From an uncultured delta proteobacterium (GTDB taxonomy: Bacteria > Desulfobacterota > Binatia > UBA9968), in assembly GCA_963737905.1 (NCBI GenBank), contig CAVTUQ010000038.1, forward strand, positions 77,736-141,735: a stretch of DNA of 64,000 bases. Direction: 5' to 3'. This document shows, one piece after another, positions 151 through 34,954 of the stretch. The translations under genes were made by a program, and so were the position numbers. The notes under the pieces were generated by a model, which ran no database searches, was not told the origin of the DNA, and saw only the letters and a program-made list of their open reading frames with translations. Position 1 is the first letter of the stretch. Every line of letters starts with the position of its first letter.

Positions 151-1197
151 CTATTTGACGCTTACACCTTGCGCGGCGTAGGCCCGGTCGATGAAGCCGC
201 TTTCATCGAGCTTACGCATGATGCGATTATCGATCACATCTTCGACTTTGATCTCACCGACTTTCGGAGTTCGGAGCTTCAACATTCGCTGCACGTTGCG
301 CAGGCCTTCCAAAGAAGCAAATGGTTTGCGATCGACGCCAACCAGCAGATCCTGATATCCGTCCTCTGCGCCTGCGGCGTCCGTTCTGAGCCGACGCGCC
401 AGTGTTTTAAGGACGGACGGTTTATTTTTGGGAGCAAGAGCAAAGGCGAGGGCTTCAATCTCCGCCTTTAAGTAACTCTCGACAATGTCCGGTCGCTGTT
501 GTAGGAACGTGTGCGGCGCGATCATAGCCTGGCCGACGATGCGTTGGTTCAAATCCGAATATTCGCCGAGGACCGTGAACCCTTTCTGCTTGAGTCGCCG
601 GCTGAATACCCCATCGAGCACCGCGGCGTCGACAATTCCCGTTTCAACGGCTTGGACTTGGACACTTTGATCGCCGACGACTTGCAACAAAATCTTATCG
701 CGTTGTGGCTCCAGCCCGAAGTGTTCAAGCCAGAGCAGCGCGCCCATCCAGGTCGTGCCCCCTATGCTCGTAAGGCCGAATGTTTTGCCGCGCAAATCCT
801 CGGCGCGTTTAATGCTGGGCCGCGCGATCAGGTCATAGGTGTTATGGCTGGAAAAAGTGGCCACGAGTTTAAAATCGTAACCGCCGCCAACGGCTGCGAG
901 CATTGCGCTCCCGCCGCTGCGGCCGAGCTGCATGTCACCCGACGCGAGACCGGCCACCAACGTCGGCGCGCCGCGCAGATAAACTGGTTGGGCGTCGAGG
1001 CCGTATTTGGCAAAGAGCCCTTGCTCTTCGGCGATCCAAAGAGCGGAGATGCGAGCATTCAACGCGGCGTAGCCAACGATCAACTTGAAAGGCGCGGAGG
1101 CGGCGTAGGAAGGAGCGTCACAGGTCACGAGGATAAAAGCAGTAACGATGCATCCCAAAATCCAACTCATGGCTACCCTCATGGATGAATGAATCAT
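151..1197 (-). CDS. ABC-type substrate-binding protein, SsuA/THI5(NMT1)-like
   Basis: Signal peptide; LWIAEEQGLFAKYGLD, DLRGKTFG and C-terminal IDNRIMRKLDESGFI motifs. Confidence 0.85.
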   Translation of the reverse strand: MIHSSMRVAMSWILGCIVTAFILVTCDAPSYAASAPFKLIVGYAALNARISALWIAEEQGLFAKYGLDAQPVYLRGAPTLVAGLASGDMQLGRSGGSAMLAAVGGGYDFKLVATFSSHNTYDLIARPSIKRAEDLRGKTFGLTSIGGTTWMGALLWLEHFGLEPQRDKILLQVVGDQSVQVQAVETGIVDAAVLDGVFSRRLKQKGFTVLGEYSDLNQRIVGQAMIAPHTFLQQRPDIVESYLKAEIEALAFALAPKNKPSVLKTLARRLRTDAAGAEDGYQDLLVGVDRKPFASLEGLRNVQRMLKLRTPKVGEIKVEDVIDNRIMRKLDESGFIDRAYAAQGVSVK

Positions 1198-1331
1198 TAC
1201 TCTACCCCGTTCTCAGCATAGATCCGGCCAATATAACCGCAGCGTGATCGTTCAGGCTGGGACAAAAAATTAAGGTCAAAAAGATAAACGAGAGTCTCAT
1301 GGTATGACTTGGAAACATAATACGGCAAATG

Positions 1332-2172
1332 TCAACTGTCGAACTGCGCCAGCCACTGATAGATGATCTCGACAATCTCCGCCGTGTGCTTATTGTAAAA
1401 ATGATTGCCTCCGTCGACCAGCTTATAGATTGAGTTGGCACCCGCGGCAGCGACCAGCTCTTCGCGCGTATTCATGAAAAAACTTGGGCTCGGCGCTGCC
1501 GACGATGGCGAGCAAGGGGCAGCCGAGCCGCTTTGCGTAGGGACGGCAATCGTTGCGATCGTCTTTGCCGTATTTGTCCAAATGTGTACGGGCGGTAAAG
1601 ATTCCCGGTGTGGCACCCACGGCGACGGACAATAACTCTTCACCCCTGCTCTCAGCGACCATAGTTTCAGCTCTTTCTATGGTTTCGCGAAACCCGGGCT
1701 GCCGGGAAATCCGCTCGGAATAGAATTGCTTTGGGGCGGAGCAAGACACGATGCTGACCACGTCCGCACGTTGGCGCGTGCCCTGGTAGATGATCGATTT
1801 GATAGCTCCCAAACTATGGCCGATGAGCACGAAGCGGCGATAGCCTTGCTTTTCGAGGTAATTCAAAGCCCCGTCAAAATCGAATAAGCAGTCGTCAAGA
1901 TTTTCGTAAGCCGACCCGCCGAATTTAGTTAGATTGCCGACGCGGGCAATCCAGTCGTGGCCGCGGGTATTGATCACAAAGCAATGGTAGCGGCGTTGCG
2001 CCAGCTCCTGCCCGAAACTCGCCAACGGCGGCAAATAAAAATTCATCGCTACGCCGTGAACAAACACCAGTGCAAGATCCGAGCGTTCCTCTGGCGGCGT
2101 GAAGAGCAGGCCGTGGAGTCTCTCGTTGTCGGCGGTTTTGAAACTACAGAGTTGCGTGTGGATGCTCATCAA
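1332..2172 (-). CDS. Alpha/beta hydrolase (DUF1749-like), frameshifted near 1462
   Basis: HG oxyanion motif and GHSLG nucleophile; the C-terminal GGNHFY catalytic-His segment is in a second frame (ORF 1332..1643). Confidence 0.75.
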
Positions 2173-26921: not shown

Positions 26922-27977
26922 TCAGGAAGCTTTGAACTTGCCGGTCAGACGATAGTGTGAAGCCAAAGTAGCCAGGTAGGCGGCAATTTCGACGCCGGCA
27001 GCGTCCGATCGAAGTCGCAAGTCCAATTCGGAGCAACGCTCCGCCAACGCCCGCAGCAGGCGGTCCAGTGTGAACTTCGGCTCGCCCGTCCAAGCGGAGA
27101 CCGCGTTCAGAATCGGTTTTGTCGAGCGACGCAGAAAAGTCGACGCTCGCTCGGTGTTAGGCGAAGCAGAGGAATCGACAAACAATTTCTTGAGGTCGGC
27201 GTCAAAAAAGTCGGGAAACTCCTGCGCATAGGTGTGTCGCCGGCGCTTGTAATAGAGTGCCAATCGGGATCGAAGCCGGGACGCCTCGCTCATCTTGGTC
27301 CTTGAAAAAACCAACGGCGGTTTGCCGGCGAGCTTGGCCATTAGACTATCCACGTACTCCAACTTCTCCAGGGCCTTCCAATCCTTATACTGTTGCTTCC
27401 AGTCCAAATCCGGCGTGAGCCAAATGGCGACGGTTTCAGCGAAATCTTCCTCGGGATGGCTTTGGGCGTACCAGCCGCCCAGGTGACGCACAAATCGCTT
27501 GCTGTAGGGGCGAGCGCGAAAGCTTTCCGAGTATTCCAACGACGGCGGCCCGAATAACTTTTGCCAGCGGGTTTCTTTTTCCAGCAGATAGGCGTGATTC
27601 AGGACATGTCCCATCTCATGGCGCAAAAGGCTCATACACCACGCTTCTGTGCCCCCCTCCACTTCCATCATCATCTTCTCCTCGAGCCTTTTCAGTCGTG
27701 GATGGGCGAGATAAAAGGGGATGGCGATGGTCGCGCAGCCTTCGGGACAAAACCATTCGTCGCCGAGATAACAGAGGGGCTTGAAGCCGATCCCTTTCGC
27801 GGCAAGCTCGCTGAAAAATTTTTGGATCCGCGATTCGAGTTCGGTACCGGCAATTTTGAGTTTCAGATCGCAGATCCGCATCTGCAGGAGTTCGTCATCG
27901 TTCAAGCCTGCCAGTTCCGGCAAAGGAGCCCCCGCCTTCGCCGACTCCGGTTGTTGTTTGCCTTCCGAGGCGTCCAT
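26922..27977 (-). CDS. Putative zinc-binding metallopeptidase (Peptidase_Mx-like)
   Basis: LRHEMGH (HExxH) plus YAQSHPEEDFAET motif. Confidence 0.82.
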   Translation of the reverse strand: MDASEGKQQPESAKAGAPLPELAGLNDDELLQMRICDLKLKIAGTELESRIQKFFSELAAKGIGFKPLCYLGDEWFCPEGCATIAIPFYLAHPRLKRLEEKMMMEVEGGTEAWCMSLLRHEMGHVLNHAYLLEKETRWQKLFGPPSLEYSESFRARPYSKRFVRHLGGWYAQSHPEEDFAETVAIWLTPDLDWKQQYKDWKALEKLEYVDSLMAKLAGKPPLVFSRTKMSEASRLRSRLALYYKRRRHTYAQEFPDFFDADLKKLFVDSSASPNTERASTFLRRSTKPILNAVSAWTGEPKFTLDRLLRALAERCSELDLRLRSDAAGVEIAAYLATLASHYRLTGKFKAS

Positions 27978-28081
27978 CCCAGATATTTTAGCAGAGGGGG
28001 CTTAAAGCGGCTACTTAGACGAGATGGAGTGATGGAGTCATAGATGGAACGGCCGTGGTTGACGTTCGAGCGAGGGTCGCG

Positions 28082-28579
28082 CTAGGGCGCCACCGTGCCG
28101 GGTCTCTGCGGTACTTTTCCGTCCAGTTCATCTTCGATATTGCCGTAGATGTAGTAAGGGTTGGAGACGGATTTGCGATACTCTTCCGGCGGAACGTTAC
28201 AATAGACCTCTAACTGGTTGCCATCGGGATCGAAGAAATAAATGCTCTTGGCGACTCCATGAAAAACAGTATGGCGAATTTTTACGTTGTTTTCTTTAAA
28301 GCGGCGATAAACTTCCTGCAACTCAACGAAACTCGCGACTTCGAAGGAGACGTGCTCCATCCCTATCTGTTCGGGGTTCGGCATGGGCGCGCCTTCCTTG
28401 GCTTCGCGAATCGCCAGCATATGGTGATTATCGACCACGTCGCTGCTGAAAAAGAGCATGCCGCGATCATTTTGACCGACCTGGGGAAAACCCAAGACGT
28501 CCGTGAAGAATTTCCGCGAAGATTCGAGATTTTTCACTTTCAAAACCAAATGACCGACTCGTTTAATTCTAAACGCCAT
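28082..28579 (-). CDS. VOC/glyoxalase family protein
   Basis: GHLVLKV, HHMLA, MEHVSF and SIYFFDPDGNQLE. Confidence 0.88.
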   Translation of the reverse strand: MAFRIKRVGHLVLKVKNLESSRKFFTDVLGFPQVGQNDRGMLFFSSDVVDNHHMLAIREAKEGAPMPNPEQIGMEHVSFEVASFVELQEVYRRFKENNVKIRHTVFHGVAKSIYFFDPDGNQLEVYCNVPPEEYRKSVSNPYYIYGNIEDELDGKVPQRPGTVAP

Positions 28580-28599
28580 GTTTCTATCCTCCGTTTTTT

Positions 28600-29571
28600 C
28601 TACATGGTCAACATGACCTTGCCGAAGTGCTCGCGCCCTTCGAGATAACGCTGAGCGGCGCGGGCTTCCGCCAACGGAAAGCTTTTGCCGATCACGACTT
28701 GAAATTTTTTCTCCTGGATAAGCTTTAAAATATCGTCGAGCTGTTTGAAATCTTCCGGCTTCGACTTTAGATAATTGGTAATCGAAAATCGCGTCGCTTT
28801 TCGACCGTCACTGAGATCCGGCAGCGGATCCGGAATCGCGCCAAAGGCGCCGCCGATGGAGAAAAGACGGCCGCCGGGCGCGAGTGCCTGCAAGCTTTTC
28901 TGAAAAACTTCGCCGCCGATCATTTCCAACACGACATCAACGCCACGATTGTTGGTGACGCGCATGACTTCCGGCAGAAAATCGGTTTCGGAGACGTCGA
29001 TGGTAACGTCGGCCCCCAGTTGTCGCAGTCTTCGACATTTCTCTTCGCTGCCGGAGGTCGCGACGACTTTCGCGCCCAGATGCTTGGCGATTTGGATCGC
29101 GGCATTGCCGACGCCGCTGCTCCCTCCTTGCACCAGCAGCCAGTCGCCGGCTTTGAGTTTGCCGTCCGTCAACAAGCCGAACCACGCGGTAAGACATACG
29201 GTGGGCGTTGCCGCCGCCTGGGCCGAGGTGACTCCGTCGGGGACGGGCCGCGCTTCGGAGGTTTTGGCGACCGCGTATTCCGCGTAACCGCCGAGACTCG
29301 GATAGGCAACGACACGCTGGCCTGCTTGGTATTCGTTAACGCCGGCACCTAGCTTTTCGACGGTGCCGGCGAATTCGCGACCCGGAATGAGCGGGAGCGC
29401 ATCGGCGGAAATACGATAGGTGCCCTTGCGCAGGCCGAGATCCGCGCGGTTCAAGGACGCCGCTTCGACTTTGATCAGAATCTCGCCCGCTTTGGGCTCG
29501 GGTACCGGGACATCTTCGTATTGGAGAGCGTCTTCCGTGGGGCCGAATTTGTGGATGCGAATGGCTTTCAT
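28600..29571 (-). CDS. NADPH:quinone oxidoreductase (zeta-crystallin/MDR family)
   Basis: SLNRAD...G.E.AG, GGYAEY, GGSSGVG and GKVML. Confidence 0.9.
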   Translation of the reverse strand: MKAIRIHKFGPTEDALQYEDVPVPEPKAGEILIKVEAASLNRADLGLRKGTYRISADALPLIPGREFAGTVEKLGAGVNEYQAGQRVVAYPSLGGYAEYAVAKTSEARPVPDGVTSAQAAATPTVCLTAWFGLLTDGKLKAGDWLLVQGGSSGVGNAAIQIAKHLGAKVVATSGSEEKCRRLRQLGADVTIDVSETDFLPEVMRVTNNRGVDVVLEMIGGEVFQKSLQALAPGGRLFSIGGAFGAIPDPLPDLSDGRKATRFSITNYLKSKPEDFKQLDDILKLIQEKKFQVVIGKSFPLAEARAAQRYLEGREHFGKVMLTM

Positions 29572-29674
29572 CGCTTTCGCCTCCTTTAACACTGTATTGA
29601 AGAAAGCTTAGACAGGATAACGTCTCTCTGTCAACGCGGAAAAGCTAGAGCACCCGCACGATTCACTTTGGTGC

Positions 29675-29703
29675 TTGCCTCGGTGGAGATAAGCGATTAT
29701 CCT
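29675..29703 (+). promoter_or_regulatory. Sigma70-type promoter for the leader peptide / tRNA-Gln transcript
   Basis: TTGCCT (29675-29680), 17 bp, TATCCT (29698-29703); ATG lies 8 nt downstream, i.e. near +1. Confidence 0.55.
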
Positions 29704-29711
29704 GATTTCAA

Positions 29712-29741
29712 ATGAACACTAGCCAGCAACAAACCCTGTAG
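29712..29741 (+). CDS. Putative Gln-rich attenuator leader peptide MNTSQQQTL (probably leaderless)
   Basis: ATG AAC ACT AGC CAG CAA CAA ACC CTG TAG; stop codon abuts the first hairpin; ends 86 nt before tRNA-Gln. Confidence 0.65.
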   Translation: MNTSQQQTL

Positions 29742-29823
29742 CCCGCCTTCACATCGTTGAAGGCAGGGTGGTCTGCCTTCTGGATAAGCGCCCCAGTAGG
29801 CATTGACCTTCTGGGGCGCTTTT
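29742..29823 (+). promoter_or_regulatory. Putative transcription attenuator (alternative hairpins plus intrinsic terminator)
   Basis: 1:2 GCCTTCA/TGAAGGC; 2:3 GAAGGCAG/CTGCCTTC; 3:4 TGCCTTCTGG/CCAGTAGGCA; terminator AAGCGCCCCAG/CTGGGGCGCTT with a TTTTAGCTTT tail. Confidence 0.65.
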
Positions 29824-29827
29824 AGCT

Positions 29828-29902
29828 TTGGGGATCGTCTAATTGGTAGGACATCAGACTTTGGATCTGAGAATCCAGGTTCGACTCCTGGTCCCCGAGC
29901 CA
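29828..29902 (+). tRNA. tRNA-Gln(UUG)
   Basis: Cloverleaf: TTGGGGA/TCCCCGA acceptor, TCAGA-CT TTG GA-TCTGA anticodon arm, CCAGG TTCGACT CCTGG T arm, G73 and CCA. Confidence 0.95.
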
Positions 29903-29917
29903 TTTCTTGTTCCGTGT

Positions 29918-29955
29918 TTGGGGGTCGTCTAATCGGTAGGACATCAGACTTTGAA
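29918..29955 (+). pseudogene. tRNA-Gln(UUG) second copy, 5' half (interrupted at the anticodon loop)
   Basis: TTGGGGGTCGTCTAATCGGTAGGACATCAGACTTTGAA, near-identical to copy 1, then diverges. Confidence 0.85.
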
Positions 29956-31415
29956 TCTTGAGACCCCAAATTCTCAAGAAATTATTTGCACGCGATCAGC
30001 GAAGAATTTTGTAGTAAAATCAAACGTAAAAATAATTACTTATAAAAAGTAAACTACTTTTAAAAACTAAATTGGAATGTTCTTTGCTTGGATCTAAAAT
30101 CCACTGGTGTCACCCGGTAACAACCCGGTAACAATAGAGCAGCTGCCAACAAGCTAGATGATTATGGCGGTCGGGTAGTGTCTGAGTTTGACCTAAAATG
30201 CTGGTCAGTCTTTGCTCGCAGAATCACGGGAATACGATAAGTTTTTTTGATCGTAATATGCTGACAGGATAATCACTAGTTTAGAGAGCATCAATGAATC
30301 TGCCCAAGGAAGCATGGCCACTTGTCGGAGCGTGTCTGCGGCCCGCTCAACAGAACGTTAACCATATCTCTATCTGTTATTGATCGTCTTTAGACCAAAG
30401 GAACGCCCACTGATGCAACCGCGCAAACTCGCGCCAGCGTCCACAAGTAAGTCGATTTTCCCTTCCCGACGAGCATATTAATACGAAAAACAAGGTTCTT
30501 TTTAGCTTGGCGAAAAAGAAATCGGTTTCGTTTAATACGCTCCAGGCTCCCAAGTAGACCAAGGCGAGTGATGAAGGCTTAAGACTCGCATTGCTTATGA
30601 CAGTCGTGTCGGTGAGGACAGTCGAAGCGCGATTCACTATTCCCGATATGGAGAGACCCCGGCTATTTATCGGATGTGGATCAGGCAAAGAAAAAGAAAA
30701 TGACTATGAATATCGAAGCATCTACTGGTTTGCTTGGATGGTATCTGGTGGCTTTTGGAGTAACGTTAGATCTTCACTGAAGCTATTGATAGAACTAACT
30801 CATAACTTTGTGCAATCCCGAAAATCGACGCACTATCGAAAACGTTACTCTTCAAGTTATGGAAATTTGGGAAGAAAAATGACTCCAAATTGGACGAAGA
30901 AAAAATCAAGAACTGAATCTTCGGATGGTCGAGTTTGGACAGATTAAGTTATGCGCTGTGGTCCTCACAGTTTACAAATGTAATAAGTTACACCATTTAG
31001 TGCGCGTGCCTAGGGTTCTTACCATTGTTGATTTTCTTTTTTCCTGTAAATGTTCAGAGCGTAACTCCAGTTCTAGCGTAGGAAAGATCTATTATCCTGT
31101 GGGTGTGGGAGCCTCCATTTATTACTCTTGCTATAGCCAAACGTGTGTCGTGTGTGTTGAGCATACTTGCTTAGCATATTGATTTGAGAGGTAGGTTATT
31201 CAGAGTTGCGAAAGCCAACGAACGCGGGTTTTCGAAAAGTAGATTTCGAACGGCTAGATTACTGAAACCGGGAAAGGGCTAAGTTCGTTAGATTCGGGAA
31301 GCCGTTGAGCAAACCATAATTAATAAGAAACCAGCCTGGCCGAAGGTTTGAAAGTCGTGATTTCTTTTTTTCGTTGCGGCGCGCCGTGGACGACGACCCT
31401 ACATAAGATAAACAA
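29956..31415. mobile_element. AT-rich 1.46-kb integrated element remnant splitting tRNA-Gln; no integrase visible
   Basis: Lies exactly between the two tRNA halves; abrupt GC drop; tandem ACCCGGTAACA repeats at 30112-30133; no convincing long ORF. Confidence 0.7.
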
Positions 31416-31451
31416 TCTGAAAATCTAGGTTCGAGACCTAGCCCCAAGCCA
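31416..31451 (+). pseudogene. tRNA-Gln second copy, displaced 3' half
   Basis: TCTGA AAAT CTAGG TTCGAGA CCTAG CCCCAA G CCA; complements the 5' half (one C short in the homopolymer). Confidence 0.85.
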
Positions 31452-31673
31452 TTTATACCGATCTGCAGTCCTGACGCTTAGATTTCACGTCAAGTGATCA
31501 ACGCCCGTGCCTAGCCGGTAGGCGCGGCTGACGAACTCTCTTGTTTCCCAGATCCGTATTCCCATTCGGGCCGGGCACAGGATTCCTGTAATTTGTTTTT
31601 GGACTTTTCGCGTCCTCATGTTGACGGGTGAGACGGGCTGGTAGTAGAAGAACGGTAGAGTGGAGAAGCAGTT

Positions 31674-32722
31674 ATGAGACGATCGTTTCCAGTTATCGAT
31701 GCTGACGGTCATGTGATCGAGCGGGATCGTGAGTTGAGAGAATTTCTGCCGGCGCCGTATCGCGGCGTGGAAGGGAAGCGCGAGTATCCGCTCTTTTCTT
31801 GGGACGGCTGGGCGCGGGGCGCGCTGTCGCCGCATAAGCGAGAACATCCTGATGCGAAGCTCTGGACACGATTCCTCGATGCGACGGAAATCGCCGCAAC
31901 CGTGCTCTATCCCAACGACGGCCTCAATATCGGTTTGCTCCGTGATGCCGATTGGGCAGTAGCATTAGCGCATGCCTACAACGACTGGCTGCACCATGAT
32001 TTCTTAAGCGTGAGTCCTCGTTTTCGGGGCGTCGCGCTACTCGCGCCGCAAGATCCTACCGAAGCGGCCAAGGAATTGGAACGCGCGGTAGGCGACCTGG
32101 GTATGGCCGGCGGCATGTTGCCGGCAGTATTGAGTCCGATGCGCGGCTACGGGTTGCCCCAGTTCGATCCGATCTACGCGGCGGCGGAAAAACTCGACGT
32201 GCCCATCGCCGTACACGGCGGCGCCGCCGTGGAACTGGGCCTGGACCACATGCCGTCCTTTGCCGGTGTCTACCCGCTTAGCCACCCGTTTTCACAAATG
32301 CAGCAGCTCACCAGCATGATGATTCACGGCGTATTCGAGCGCTTCCCGAAATTGCGCGTCGCGTTTTTAGAAGCGGGCTGCGGCTGGGTTCCTTACCTGG
32401 CGGATCGGTTGGACGAAAGTTGGGAACACCGGATCAACCGCTGGCCGCATCCGACCAAGCGATGCCCCAGTGAGATCATGCGCGGGGGCAATCTTTACTA
32501 CGCCTGTGAACAGGGAGGAAAAAACCCTTGCGACGGTGGCCGAGTTGATCGGCGGCGCGCAGCTTGCTCTGGGCGTCTGATTTTCCCCACGAGCGGCCTT
32601 GGGAAGAGTTCAGCGATGATATCGACACGTTAGTTCGCCGCCGCGATCTTCCTGAGAATCTCCCGCGGCAGATCTTGTTCGAGAACCCGTGCCGGTTCTA
32701 TAAATTGAAACCGGAAGTCTAG
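31674..32722 (+). CDS. Amidohydrolase_2 family protein, two frameshifts (~32514, ~32563)
   Basis: DADGH, AYNDWL, IAVH and FERFPKLRVAFLEAG.GW; WASDFPH and ILFENP.RFY appear only after frame shifts. Confidence 0.82.
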
Positions 32723-32853
32723 CAGGCTGCTGAAAAAGACTCATATGCTTCGTTGCGCTCAATCGCCTCGCTCCGTTAAACGTACTGATTAAGTACGCCT
32801 CCGCTCGTCGATTCTTCGCGCGCCTCGCCTCTGAGTCTTTTTGAGTAGCCTGC
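32722..32853. mobile_element. MITE-like / REP-like element (~132 bp) with terminal inverted repeats
   Basis: GCAGGCTGCTGAAAAAGACTCA ... TGAGTCTTTTTGAGTAGCCTGC (22 bp, 2 mismatches); non-coding interior. Confidence 0.65.
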
Positions 32854-32893
32854 AACAGAATTTTTCAGCAAGTTGCGATGCAGCCGTCGAGAA

Positions 32894-32961
32894 GTTCGAG
32901 ATTCGAGGTTTAAAGAGGTGGGCGAATCAGGACCTTGAACGTTGAACTTTGAACGTTGAAC
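32894..32961. repeat. Intergenic heptamer repeats in inverted arrangement
   Basis: GTTCGAG ATTCGAG ... CTTGAAC GTTGAAC TTTGAAC GTTGAAC. Confidence 0.6.
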
Positions 32962-32988
32962 AGTTCTTGAATATCAGCGGAGGTAAGG

Positions 32989-33900
32989 ATGCGGGTTTTG
33001 ATTACTGGAGCGGGTTTGATCGGCACTCATACCGCACGGGAATTGGTCGAGCGAGGCGATGAGGTCACGTTCTTCGACGTCGCACCCAGGCCGGATTATA
33101 TCCGGCATGTAACCGGAAAGGACTTGCCCGTGATTCGCGGGGACATCCGCGATGTGCCGGTGCTCGTGGACGCTTTTCACCAAGCCCGTCCCGAGTGCGT
33201 GATTCATCTAGCGGCTTCAGTGGGCGAAGCCAACATCAACAACGTCTACGCGGGCTTTCAAGTGAATCTGGTGGCGACCATCAACGTTGCTGAAGCGGTA
33301 CAGCTGGCCGGTGTGCGCCGGTTGATCCATGCCAGCACTCAGGCTCTCTACCTGGGCGACGATCCCAAGGAGTTGCTTTACGAGGACTCGCCCCTCGACA
33401 GCCGCGGGCGCGTCTACAACGCCTCGAAGCTAGGCTGCGAGCATGTGCTCAAAACCTATGCCGCGAAGCACAGATTTGAGTTGGCGTTACTGCGGTTTGC
33501 GGGGGTTTATGGTTACCATTCGGTTGCTGGCGGTCCCGGCGTCGCCGTGCAAGCGGCGGTGTGGGATGCGATGGCAGGCAAACCCGTGGAGCTCAACGTC
33601 TACGAGAGTGTCGATTTCATCTACGCCAAGGATCTGGCCAACGGTATCGCTCTCGCTGTGCATACGTCGCCTCTGCCTCACCAGGTATACAATCTTGGCA
33701 GCGGCACGTTGACCACGGTGGAAGACGTTGAAAAAGCGCTCGGAAAAATATTTCCAGGTGTCCAGATGCGCCGTGGGAAACTGACTCCCGCGCGACCGCG
33801 GATGGACATCACGCGGGCGCGCTCGGAGCTGGGATTCAATCCCGAGTACAAGCTCGAAGCGGGATTGCGCGACTATGTTGCCGAGTTGAAGAAGAGCTAG
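32989..33900 (+). CDS. NAD-dependent epimerase/dehydratase (extended SDR)
   Basis: [16 protein letters not shown] and YNASK. Confidence 0.9.
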
Positions 33901-33979
33901 GAAATCAGAATAAACCGCAAGGAACGCAAAGTGCACAAAATAACAACCAACGACGAAAAACACGAAGGAGAAAAGATTC

Positions 33980-34954
33980 ATGAAGATCGTAGTCATCGAT
34001 GACTATCAAAACGCGTTTAAAACACTCAAGTGCTATCCCAAGCTGAGCGGCCATGAGGTTGTCGTTTATACGGACACCGAAAAGGACGTAGCGAAGCTCG
34101 CTGAGCGATTGAAAGACGCGGAAGTCGTTGTGCTCACTCAGCAGCGCTCGGCTTTTCCTCGCGCTTTGATCGAGCGGTTGCCCAAGCTCAAGCTCATTGG
34201 CCAAACCGGGCGGGCGGCCGCGCACGTCGACTTGGAAGCTTGCACGGAAAAGGGAATCGTCGTGTCGGCGGGCGGCTCCGGCAATTCGAACGCTACGGCC
34301 GAGCTGACTTGGGGACTCATCCTTTCGGCGCTACGCAATCTGCCGTACGAAGTCAGACGGCTCAAAGAAGGGCAATGGCAGTCAACCCTCGGCATCGGCA
34401 TCAACGGCAAGACGCTGGGAATTTATGCCTACGGAAAAATCGGCAGTATCGTCGCCGGCGTCGGCAAAACGTTTGGCGCGCGAGTCATCTGTTGGGGCCG
34501 CGAAGGCTCCACCGGCCGCGCCAGAGCCGCCGGCTTTGAAGTTGCCAAAAGCCGGGAGGAGTTTTTCGCCGAGGCGGATATCTTGAGCCTCCATTTGCCG
34601 CTCAACAAAGATACCCGGGGCATCGTCACGCGTGACGATCTCGCGCACATGAAACCCACGGCGTTGCTCGTGAATCCTAGCCGGGCGGGGCTGATCGCGA
34701 AAGATGCGCTGGCCGATGCGCTCAGAGCCGGCCGGCCCGGCATGGCCGCAGTAGACGTTTACGAAGAAGAGCCGGTGATCGGCGCGGACCATCCGCTGGT
34801 CAAGATGGATAAGGTCACCTGCACGCCGCATCTGGGTTACGTTACCCGCGAAAGTTATGAAGAATACTATGCCGTCGTGGTCGACGACATTCTCGCTTAC
34901 GCAGGCGGCAAACCCAGCCATGTGCTCAATCCCGAGGCATTAGCAGGCCGCTGA
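33980..34954 (+). CDS. D-2-hydroxyacid dehydrogenase family protein
   Basis: ATAELTWG, GKTLGIYAYGKIG, SLHLPL, NPSRAG, DVYEEEP and TPHLGY. Confidence 0.9.
   Translation: MKIVVIDDYQNAFKTLKCYPKLSGHEVVVYTDTEKDVAKLAERLKDAEVVVLTQQRSAFPRALIERLPKLKLIGQTGRAAAHVDLEACTEKGIVVSAGGSGNSNATAELTWGLILSALRNLPYEVRRLKEGQWQSTLGIGINGKTLGIYAYGKIGSIVAGVGKTFGARVICWGREGSTGRARAAGFEVAKSREEFFAEADILSLHLPLNKDTRGIVTRDDLAHMKPTALLVNPSRAGLIAKDALADALRAGRPGMAAVDVYEEEPVIGADHPLVKMDKVTCTPHLGYVTRESYEEYYAVVVDDILAYAGGKPSHVLNPEALAGR

What the first reader, a model, noticed from the sequence alone, without database searches (positions are those of the whole stretch)
29918..31451. tRNA-Gln split at the anticodon loop, not regenerated, with 5-of-7 mismatched overlap regions
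Seen: left junction ACATCAGA-CTTTGAA-TCTTGAGA and right junction ACATAAGA-TAAACAA-TCTGAAAA. Both have AGA/TCT dyad arms around 7 bp, but the 7-mers share only the last AA. The 3' tRNA half lies 1.46 kb downstream. Established: most tRNA-targeting integrases need identical overlaps and restore the gene, whereas IntDOT tolerates five mismatches in a 7-bp overlap and Tn916 uses non-homologous coupling sequences. Inference: a mismatch-tolerant tyrosine recombinase interrupted the redundant second copy. Excision could restore the tRNA (a dosage switch) or leave an altered anticodon loop.
Basis: partly seen in the sequence, partly recalled or inferred. Interest (0 to 1): 0.78.

Follow-up and report, generated by a model that had tools for sequence, protein, structure and literature searches.

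The report
Insertion-killed spare glutamine tRNA gene
A spare glutamine tRNA gene of this uncultured bacterium was cut in two by 1.46 kb of foreign DNA that now holds no recognisable gene, and the neighbouring glutamine tRNA gene has changed its anticodon to that of the broken one; it is a clean but fairly ordinary case of damage by mobile DNA.

Summary
Positions 1-41 of a tRNA-Gln(UUG) gene lie at 29918-29958 and positions 37-76 at 31414-31451. Relatives carry the same gene unbroken in the same flanks, and metagenome contigs join 29953 to 31414. Between the halves lie 1455 bp bounded by a 5-bp direct repeat, AATCT (tRNA positions 37-41).

The insert has 42.6% G+C against 54.5% for the genome. 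It is single-copy and has no credible ORF, no integrase, no terminal inverted repeats and no Rfam intron match.

An independent metagenome contig (L032) has the same left junction and the same first ~205 bp. It then carries unrelated cargo, a 315-aa HEPN-like ORF. The insert is therefore an old, variable and eroded islet, not a misassembly or an intron.

Further likeness of the insert ends to the target is marginal (7 of 13, p about 0.02-0.03) on one side and absent on the other.

New here: the intact upstream gene has the body of the family's CUG gene but now reads UUG. This change is seen only where the second copy is broken. The broken gene is a spare, because housekeeping Gln tRNAs lie on other contigs. 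Interest is modest.

The parts
29828..29902 (+). Intact accessory tRNA-Gln, copy 1. It has the body of the family's CUG-type gene but the anticodon loop CTTTGGA (UUG).
   Evidence: ARAGORN and Rfam at 59.2 bits. The orthologues in G021 and G059 have the loops TTCTGGA and TTCTGAA (CUG) on the same body. L032 has TTTTGGA.
29918..29958 (+). 5' part (tRNA positions 1-41) of accessory tRNA-Gln(UUG), copy 2. It is now a pseudogene half.
   Evidence: 41 of 41 positions are identical to the unbroken G001 gene. Rfam gives 24 bits, below the gathering score.
29954..29958 (+). Left copy of the 5-bp direct repeat AATCT (tRNA positions 37-41).
   Evidence: The joint has 5 ambiguous letters.
29959..31413 (.). 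1455-bp insert with 42.6% G+C. It is single-copy, with no credible ORF, no integrase and no terminal inverted repeats.
   Evidence: (G+C as low in only 0.015% of 13,319 genome windows). The insert was not found in 89 other genomes of the family, in phage or plasmid collections or in a 400-genome sample of the phylum (left 207 bp only).
29956..29979 (+). Perfect 8-bp hairpin, TCTTGAGA-CCCCAAAT-TCTCAAGA, followed by AATTATTT. It looks like a terminator, sits at the left junction and starts in the TCT of AATCT.
   Evidence: It is conserved in L032 with one loop change.
29959..30085 (.). Conserved left-end block of the insert. It is AT-rich and contains inverted repeats.
   Evidence: 123 of 127 positions are identical to L032, against 120 of 140 in the upstream flank (Fisher p = 0.002). 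Homology to L032 fades over 30086-30165 (85%) and ends at about 30165.
30112..30133 (+). Tandem 11-mer, ACCCGGTAACA twice.
   Evidence: It is kept in L032 with one change.
30412..30435 (+). 24-nt motif that recurs on contig C9 of this genome and in G015.
31414..31451 (+). 3' part (tRNA positions 37-76, including the right AATCT copy at 31414-31418) of copy 2. One C is missing from the acceptor run at 31442-31445.
   Evidence: Relatives' contigs carry the extra C (tables 4 and 7).

Best explanation
The locus once held a tandem pair of accessory glutamine tRNA genes, CUG then UUG, as G021 still has.

In the lineage of this genome, foreign AT-rich DNA entered the UUG gene at positions 37-41 of the anticodon arm. 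It left the 5-bp sequence AATCT on both sides and did not bring a replacement 3' half, so the gene was killed.

I think the DNA entered most likely by conservative site-specific recombination across a short AATCT core, as a small integrative islet. The recombinase gene has since been lost, or always acted in trans.

The islet then diversified and eroded. Its first ~127 bp (hairpin plus AT-rich arm) stay conserved between strains. The interior differs between strains, and in this genome it no longer encodes anything recognisable.

The neighbouring CUG-type gene acquired C34->U (the state in L032) and then U32->C (this genome). The locus therefore again supplies a UUG isoacceptor.

Shown: the insertion, its borders, its foreign composition, the lack of genes, the shared left end with different cargo, the decay of the halves and the anticodon change.

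Inferred: the recombination mechanism, the former presence of a recombinase, and that the anticodon change was selected because of the loss.
For: - Unbroken orthologues exist in identical flanks, and empty-site contigs exist in metagenomes.
- The 5-bp repeat is exact and no target bases are lost. A chance match of 5 bp is about 1 in 1000.
- The insertion point lies in the anticodon arm. This is one of the crossover sublocations of tRNA-targeting tyrosine integrases (Islander paper PMC4383910, passages read: 2083 islands with an anticodon-centred attP).
- The insert has 42.6% G+C against 54.5 +/- 2.9% for the genome.
- L032, an independent assembly, has the same junction and the same first ~205 bp, then unrelated DNA with a 315-aa ORF. 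That ORF is absent from this genome.
- The left block is more conserved than the flank: 4 differences in 127 positions against 20 in 140, p = 0.002.
- Small metagenome contigs match pieces of the interior nearly exactly but continue into unlike sequence (records 23-25 and table 7). This fits a patchwork.
- Decay: one C is lost in the 3' half, and there are 3 substitutions in L032's 5' half.
- Anticodon change: copy 1 has every body-diagnostic base of the CUG type but reads TTG. The intermediate TTTTGGA is seen in L032, and T at 29859 is seen in a contig of run X2.
Against: - No integrase gene lies in the insert or on the contig.
- No circle-junction-like site occurs elsewhere in the assembly.
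- No element with the same ends was found in 89 family genomes, 400 phylum genomes, the viral contigs, or the phage and plasmid collections.
- Likeness of the insert ends to the target beyond AATCT is marginal (7 of 13) or absent (4 of 13).
- A 5-bp duplication is equally what a staggered cut by a transposase would leave.
- The right junction is seen only in this assembly. L032 ends before it.
- Housekeeping tRNA-Gln(UUG) and (CUG) genes exist on C13 and C25. The need for a UUG gene at this locus is therefore not evident, and the anticodon change may be neutral drift.
- The broken-plus-switched state is one lineage, so it counts as one event. It does not amount to a correlation.
- The upstream flank does not resolve whether L032 is closer to G000 (89%) or to G001 (89%).
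Confidence: 0.45

Rival explanations
1. The insert came in by transposition, or by another staggered-cut or illegitimate event. A DDE-type element, or captured foreign DNA, entered at a 5-bp staggered break. AATCT is then a target-site duplication, and the element's ends and transposase have since eroded.
For: The 5-bp direct repeat is exact and no target bases are lost. There is no integrase. The insert ends show no significant likeness to the target on the left.
Against: There are no terminal inverted repeats. No transposase domain was found in the 6 ORFs tested. There is only a single copy in the genome. The very end of the insert is not eroded but is the best-conserved part: 123 of 127 positions are identical to L032. 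The insertion point sits in the symmetric anticodon arm, which is typical of integrases.
Confidence: 0.27
2. A heterology-tolerant tyrosine recombinase (IntDOT- or Tn916-like) exchanged strands on either side of the 7-nt anticodon loop. This left unlike 7-mers: CTTTGAA at the left junction and TAAACAA at the right.
For: Both junctions read AGA-N7-TCT. The insert side of the right junction repeats ACAT.AGA of the target, 7 of 13 positions, p about 0.02-0.03. The pattern of B-type loop on the left and P-type loop on the right is one of the two outcomes such a reaction gives after replication (inference from the recalled mechanism).
Against: No recombinase was found. The last two 'overlap' bases and the next three are identical (AATCT), so a shorter identical core explains the junctions without heterology. 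The left arm is not significantly like the target (4 of 13). The properties of IntDOT and Tn916 are recalled here, not checked in a paper.
Confidence: 0.12
3. The split is an assembly artefact of the metagenome-assembled genome.
For: The genome is a MAG with 6.7% contamination. The right junction has no independent support. The source reads were not found.
Against: The left junction and 205 bp beyond it recur in the independent contig L032. Both junctions fall at the same 5 bp of one gene, which repeat-driven misjoins do not produce.
Confidence: 0.03
4. The insert is removed at the RNA level, as a group I or group II intron or as a split tRNA joined in trans.
For: Only the position in the anticodon arm, where bacterial tRNA group I introns sit (recalled).
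Against: No intron or ribozyme family matches at E up to 10. None of the six possible registers ends in G or starts with GTGYG (read). The 5-bp duplication is a DNA-level signature. The interior is not conserved between strains. The trailer and leader of the two halves are not complementary (read).
Confidence: 0.01

Closest known systems
Genomic islands and prophages integrated in tRNA genes by tyrosine integrases (Islander-type; PMC4383910, passages read; PMC9897764, passages read)
   Same: The target is a tRNA gene and the crossover lies in the anticodon arm. The DNA is foreign in composition, the cargo varies between strains, and a displaced 3' tRNA fragment marks one end.
   Different: The island does not restore the gene, and the repeat is 5 bp rather than tens of bp of tRNA sequence. 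There is no integrase. The element is only 1.46 kb and has no recognisable gene.
CIMEs, cis-mobilizable elements: decayed ICEs or IMEs that lost their integration and transfer genes but kept attL and attR (PMC5704250, passage read)
   Same: It is an integrase-less remnant bounded by short repeats at a tRNA gene, and one end is kept conserved.
   Different: It is not shown that the ends are functional att sites or that any resident integrase recognises them. CIMEs sit beside a regenerated target gene.
IntDOT (CTnDOT) and Tn916 integrases, which tolerate heterology in the overlap or coupling sequence (recalled, no paper read)
   Same: The junction 7-mers differ if the overlap is placed on the anticodon loop.
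   Different: No such recombinase is present. An identical 5-bp core makes heterology unnecessary.
Anticodon switching after loss of a tRNA gene (Yona et al. 2013, eLife, PMC3868979; abstract read)
   Same: A neighbouring tRNA gene of another isoacceptor mutated its anticodon to that of the lost gene.
   Different: This is a natural case within one amino acid (CUG to UUG). It includes a second loop change (U32 to C) that matches the UUG type. Selection is not shown, because a housekeeping UUG gene exists elsewhere.
Nuclease-plus-spare-tRNA cassettes that split tRNA-Gln genes, noted earlier in this scan (unchecked AI notes)
   Same: A tRNA-Gln gene is split at the anticodon region, with an intact Gln tRNA gene beside it and a hairpin at the junction.
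   Different: The intact gene lies outside the split and is ancestral (synteny in G021 and G059). No nuclease ORF is present in the insert.

Membership tests
tRNA-integrated genomic island (tyrosine integrase type) | Tyrosine integrase gene (PF00589) inside the element | tested here: not met
   the genome has 12 matches, none on contig C38; no ORF over 118 aa, and 0 Pfam hits in the 6 ORFs tested.
tRNA-integrated genomic island (tyrosine integrase type) | Target gene restored by an island-borne tRNA fragment, giving a long direct repeat | tested here: not met
   Only AATCT is repeated. The insert's left end against the tRNA 3' part scores at the null mean.
tRNA-integrated genomic island (tyrosine integrase type) | Crossover at the anticodon or T-loop sublocation | tested here: met
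   The repeat covers tRNA positions 37-41. Sublocations as described in PMC4383910.
tRNA-integrated genomic island (tyrosine integrase type) | Foreign composition and strain-variable content | tested here: met
   G+C 42.6% against 54.5%. L032 shares ~205 bp and then differs.
CIME (cis-mobilizable element) | Lost integrase but kept functional attL and attR | tested here: inconclusive
   Absence of an integrase is met. The att function of the ends cannot be tested. End-to-target likeness is 7 of 13 (p 0.02-0.03) and 4 of 13 (not significant).
DDE transposon / IS / MITE | Target-site duplication | tested here: met
   5-bp AATCT.
DDE transposon / IS / MITE | Terminal inverted repeats, a transposase, or multiple copies | tested here: not met
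   No terminal inverted repeat, no Pfam domain and a single copy.
Heterology-tolerant tyrosine recombinase elements (CTnDOT, Tn916) | Cognate integrase and unlike coupling or overlap sequences between conserved core arms | tested here: not met
   No integrase. The 7-mers differ only if the register is set on the loop. The core arms are weakly alike.
Group I / group II intron in a tRNA gene | Match to the intron covariance models and canonical intron boundaries | tested here: not met
   No match at E up to 10. No terminal G or GTGYG in any register.
Anticodon switch (isoacceptor shift) | Syntenic orthologue with the same body and a different anticodon | tested here: met
   Copy 1 compared with the first genes of G021 and G059.
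Anticodon switch (isoacceptor shift) | The change compensates for a lost tRNA gene | tested here: inconclusive
   It co-occurs with the broken copy in G000 and L032, which form one lineage. A housekeeping Gln(UUG) gene exists on C13.

The most novel reading that the evidence does not exclude
The insert may belong to an undescribed kind of very small, AT-rich islet without its own recombinase. Such an islet would recombine through a 5-bp core (AATCT) in the anticodon arm of accessory tRNA-Gln genes without restoring them. It would keep a conserved ~127-bp end (junction hairpin plus AT-rich arm) and swap cargo between strains: a HEPN-like gene in one, nothing recognisable in another. The host would answer by retuning the neighbouring tRNA's anticodon loop in two steps.
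Probability: 0.15. Interest if true: 0.55.

Novelty: new variant of a known kind. Interest (0 to 1): 0.3.

Why it matters
Mobile DNA normally restores the tRNA genes it targets, so a non-restoring hit is tolerated only where the gene is spare. This locus shows such a hit together with its aftermath: decay of both halves, erosion of the insert, and a stepwise anticodon change in the neighbour. It is a natural bacterial parallel to the laboratory result that cells replace a lost tRNA by mutating another gene's anticodon. It also warns annotators that a 'second tRNA-Gln' here is two dead fragments. It does not open a new mechanism unless the islet proves mobile.

Tried and rejected
- **Intron or ribozyme:** Rfam at E up to 1 over 27000-34000 and at E up to 10 over 29900-31500 gave only the tRNA matches plus chance microRNA, snoRNA and lncRNA hits.
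- **Regenerated-then-decayed 3' half:** GAGACC and CCCCAA at the insert's left end recall the T loop and acceptor strand. The local alignment score equals the null mean, so I dropped this idea.
- **Coding remnants:**
  - Six ORFs of 34-118 aa gave 0 Pfam hits, and only PHROG hits at E >= 0.31.
  - The 118-aa ORF scored Atlas recognition 1190 with no usable hit.
  - I ran no further search on these ORFs.
- **Relatives of the insert:**
  - Among 89 other family genomes, none held the insert. Two (G015, G072) gave only short matches of 28 and 32 nt, and the genome's own contig C9 gave a 29-nt match.
  - There was no match in the phage or plasmid collections, in the viral contigs for either end, or in 400 phylum genomes for the left 207 bp.
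  - The metagenome scan for the left junction gave one contig, L032.
- **The 24-nt motif in species genomes:** it was found only in the G015 contig.
- **L032's 315-aa ORF:**
  - It has no Pfam or PADLOC family and no PDB relative at E below 0.1.
  - It has no relative in 123 genomes of the order (nothing matched, so this is uninformative) or in the viral contigs.
  - The Rx4H motif is my reading of the alignment. The RiboL-PSP HEPN neighbour at 0.91 is only a lead.
- **Source reads:**
  - No run held more than 0.12 of the sampled words.
  - Excision products, circular junctions, the right junction and the missing C therefore could not be checked in the source population.
  - Parts of the insert without contig cover say nothing.
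- **X2 contig:** it runs only 7 letters past the left junction before turning unlike. That is too few to count as bridging, so its apparently different continuation is left unexplained.
- **Earlier scan notes on nuclease-plus-spare-tRNA cassettes:** I considered these and set them aside, because the intact copy is ancestral and no nuclease ORF is present.
- **Supplementary files of the papers:** these were not consulted. Supplementary tables S2 and S3 of PMC9897764, and the Islander tables, may list other non-restored tRNA hits.
Full report
**What is there**

The window is G000:C38:77736-141735, part of a 6.7-Mb metagenome-assembled genome with 46 contigs, 87% completeness and 6.7% contamination.

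ARAGORN finds one tRNA gene in the window, tRNA-Gln(TTG) at 29828-29902. Rfam scores it at 59.2 bits. Fifteen bases downstream, at 29918, a second tRNA-Gln begins. It runs normally through the D arm, the 5' strand of the anticodon stem, the loop CTTTGAA and TCT of the 3' strand. At 29958/29959 it breaks off into unrelated sequence. Rfam gives this piece 24 bits, below the 29-bit gathering score, with the T arm missing.

The rest of the gene lies at 31414-31451: the remainder of the anticodon stem, the variable region, the T arm, the acceptor strand, G73 and CCA.

**The halves belong together**

- G001, of the same genus, has one unbroken 75-nt tRNA-Gln(TTG) between the same flanking genes. Its first 41 nt equal 29918-29958, and its last 39 nt (counted from the shared AATCT) equal 31414-31451 except for one more C in the acceptor run.
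- G021, another genus of the family, has a tandem pair with a 15-nt spacer, Gln(CTG) then Gln(TTG). Its downstream flank continues like 31452 onwards in the window.
- Contigs of two metagenome runs join 29953 to 31414, skipping 1460 bases with 5 ambiguous letters. The shorter side is 32 letters in X6 and 29 in X1. These contigs come from relatives, not from the source population.

**Borders**

The only exact repeat at the two junctions is AATCT, at 29954-29958 and 31414-31418. Between the two copies lie 1455 bp, and no target base is missing. With the anticodon at gene positions 34-36, AATCT is positions 37-41: the last two loop bases and the first three of the 3' stem strand.

Beyond AATCT, I compared the insert side with the target side:

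| Side | Insert side | Target | Matches | Random 13-mers doing as well |
|---|---|---|---|---|
| Right junction | ACATAAGATAAAC | ACATCAGACTTTG | 7 of 13 | 2-3% |
| Left junction | TGAGACCCCAAAT | GAAAATCTAGGTT | 4 of 13 | 39-46% |

The sequence does not demand it. A 5-bp identical core explains the junctions without any mismatch tolerance.

**The insert**

- **Composition.** G+C is 42.6%, against 54.5 +/- 2.9% for 1455-bp windows of the genome. Only 0.015% of 13,319 such windows are as low.
- **Copy number.** It is single-copy in the assembly.
- **Coding.**
  - The longest ORF is 118 aa, and the longest stop-to-stop frame is 129 aa.
  - Six ORFs gave no Pfam family, and only PHROG hits at E >= 0.31.
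  - The 118-aa ORF has a low recognition value in the protein atlas and no hit.
- **Recombinase.** The genome has 12 matches to the tyrosine-recombinase family, none of them on this 141-kb contig.
- **Ends.** There are no terminal inverted repeats.
- **RNA families.** No intron or ribozyme family matches, even at E up to 10. None of the six registers allowed by the repeat ends in G or begins GTGYG.
- **Junction hairpin.** A perfect 8-bp hairpin, TCTTGAGA-CCCCAAAT-TCTCAAGA followed by AATTATTT, sits on the left junction. It would end any transcript of the truncated gene. That role is an inference.

**Relatives of the insert**

None was found in these searches:

- The 89 other genomes of the family. 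Two (G015, G072) gave only matches of 28 and 32 nt.
- The phage and plasmid collections.
- The viral contigs, for either end.
- 400 genomes sampled from the phylum, searched with the left 207 bp.

One scan of metagenome contigs with the left junction found L032, a 1778-nt contig. L032 has the same upstream flank. Its copy 1 has the loop TTTTGGA. Its 5' half of copy 2 carries 3 substitutions, and the junction is the same. Identity to the window by segment:

| Segment | Identity to the window |
|---|---|
| Upstream flank | 120 of 140 (85.7%) |
| 29959-30085 | 123 of 127 (96.9%) |
| 30086-30165 | 68 of 80 (85%) |
| Beyond ~30165 | unrelated |

After the shared part, L032 carries a 315-aa ORF that the window's genome lacks. 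The ORF has 35 homologues without any Pfam domain. Its alignment shows invariant R248, H253 and R254, which I read as an Rx4H, HEPN-like motif. The nearest named atlas cluster is a RiboL-PSP HEPN family at 0.91, which is a lead only.

Three conclusions follow:

1. The left junction is real in an independent assembly.
2. The insertion is shared by at least two lineages.
3. Its interior is variable, while its first ~127 bp are kept better than the neighbouring intergenic DNA (4 differences in 127 against 20 in 140, Fisher p = 0.002).

Small contigs in run X6 match 30017-30163, 30247-30332 and 30343-30457 closely, with 4, 1 and 1 other letters (plus 4 gaps in the first). At least one of them (record 24) continues into unlike sequence. 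This fits a patchwork interior.

The right junction has no independent witness.

**State of the gene**

The 3' half lacks one C that all relatives have. L032's 5' half has 3 changes in 41 nt. Precise recombination across AATCT would rebuild the anticodon arm. In this genome it would still leave a shortened acceptor strand, unless the missing C is a homopolymer error of the assembly.

No run holding the source population was found; the best share of sampled words was 0.12. Excision therefore could not be looked for.

**The neighbour changed its anticodon**

The family has two body types at this locus:

| Feature | Type 1 | Type 2 |
|---|---|---|
| 5' acceptor strand | TTGGGGA | TTGGGGG |
| D loop | AATTGG (AAGTGG in G021) | AATCGG |
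| Variable region into T stem | GAGAATCCAGG | GAAAATCTAGG |
| T loop | TTCGACT | TTCGAGA (TTCGAGG in G021) |
| Anticodon where both genes are intact | CTG | TTG |

Where both genes are intact, type 1 reads CTG, with loops TTCTGGA in G021 and TTCTGAA in G059. An X6 contig shows the same three letters. Type 2 reads TTG.

In the window, copy 1 has every type-1 body base but the loop CTTTGGA, so it reads TTG. L032 shows the one-step intermediate TTTTGGA. A contig of run X2 likewise has T at 29859 and no change at 29861.

States of the other genomes at this locus, from the 8 of 90 family genomes (G000 included) that matched, as annotated:

| Genome | State |
|---|---|
| G001 | single type-2 UUG gene |
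| G048 (unpublished; this statement rests on it) | single type-2 UUG gene |
| G023 | single chimera, type-1 5' part and type-2 3' part, UUG |
| G077 | degenerate UUG gene |
| G076 | no gene called |

The switch is thus seen only where copy 2 is broken. That is one lineage and one event, and the flank does not resolve the branching order.

The genome also has differently built Gln(UUG) and Gln(CUG) genes on C13 and C25. The pair at this locus is therefore accessory, and the selective need for the switch is not established. The parallel is the yeast experiment in which loss of a tRNA gene was repaired by anticodon mutation of another gene (PMC3868979, abstract read).

**How it most likely came about**

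The insertion point is in the symmetric anticodon arm, which is a standard crossover sublocation of tRNA-targeting tyrosine integrases (PMC4383910, passages read). The repeat is exact. The element end is conserved and AT-rich, with a tandem 11-mer (30112-30133). The cargo varies between strains.

Taken together, these make a small integrative islet the best single reading, one that has lost its recombinase or never had one. In this respect it is like a cis-mobilizable element (PMC5704250, passage read).

It fails two defining features of the known class. There is no integrase, and the target is not restored. I therefore do not file it as a member.

A staggered-cut insertion by a transposase, or an illegitimate capture of DNA, would explain the 5-bp repeat equally well. 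It explains the conserved end, the missing inverted repeats and the single copy less well.

**Verdict**

It is a real but dead gene, broken by old, eroded foreign DNA, with a neat anticodon change next door. Novelty is modest: a non-restoring, 5-bp-core variant of tRNA-targeted insertion.

The decisive data are full-length relatives of the islet and reads of the source sample. Neither could be reached here.

Noticed in passing
window 32718-32871: A MITE-like palindromic repeat of ~150 nt, with ~22-bp terminal inverted arms (CAGGCTGCTGAAAAAGACTCA ... TGAGTCTTTTTGAGTAGCCTG). It folds at z = -4.3. BLAST gives 37 rows in this genome, and copies at about 72-93% identity occur in many genomes of the family and in one other family of the order (f2). 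Rfam has no match.
   Followed up: partly
window 30412-30435; G000 C9:8311-8334; L020 (G015:C554) 1262-1289: A 24-28-nt motif inside the insert recurs once elsewhere in this genome and once in G015. There it lies ~70 nt downstream of a gene whose product I read, by eye only, as a ParE/RelE-like toxin. The G015 copy was the only match in a scan of 185,579 species genomes (the window's own genome may be left out of that scan). Its role is unknown.
   Followed up: partly
L032 603-1550: A 315-aa ORF carried by the relative's version of the islet. It belongs to a family of 35 hypothetical proteins without any Pfam domain, with invariant R..H-R (Rx4H, HEPN-like) residues. It may be a defence or abortive-infection gene.
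   Followed up: partly
L026 (G023:C356) 1504-1578, minus strand: A single tRNA-Gln(UUG) whose 5' part is type 1 and whose 3' part is type 2. It looks like a deletion by recombination between the tandem copies.
   Followed up: no
L024 (G059:C22) 1195-1501, minus strand: The two tandem Gln genes are separated by ~307 nt instead of 15 nt, by an AT-rich stretch containing inverted repeats. This is a second sign that the locus attracts insertions.
   Followed up: no
G000 C15:91371-92412 and C15:87743-87820: Two broken tyrosine-integrase fragments (with 4 and 1 internal stops) lie ~3.5 kb from tRNA-Glu(UUC). This is probably another decayed island at a tRNA gene.
   Followed up: no
window 29918-29971: The truncated gene plus the first bases of the insert fold as a tRNA without a T arm. 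CCCCAA of the insert pairs with TTGGGG of the acceptor strand (Rfam 24 bits, below the gathering score). This is probably coincidence.
   Followed up: partly
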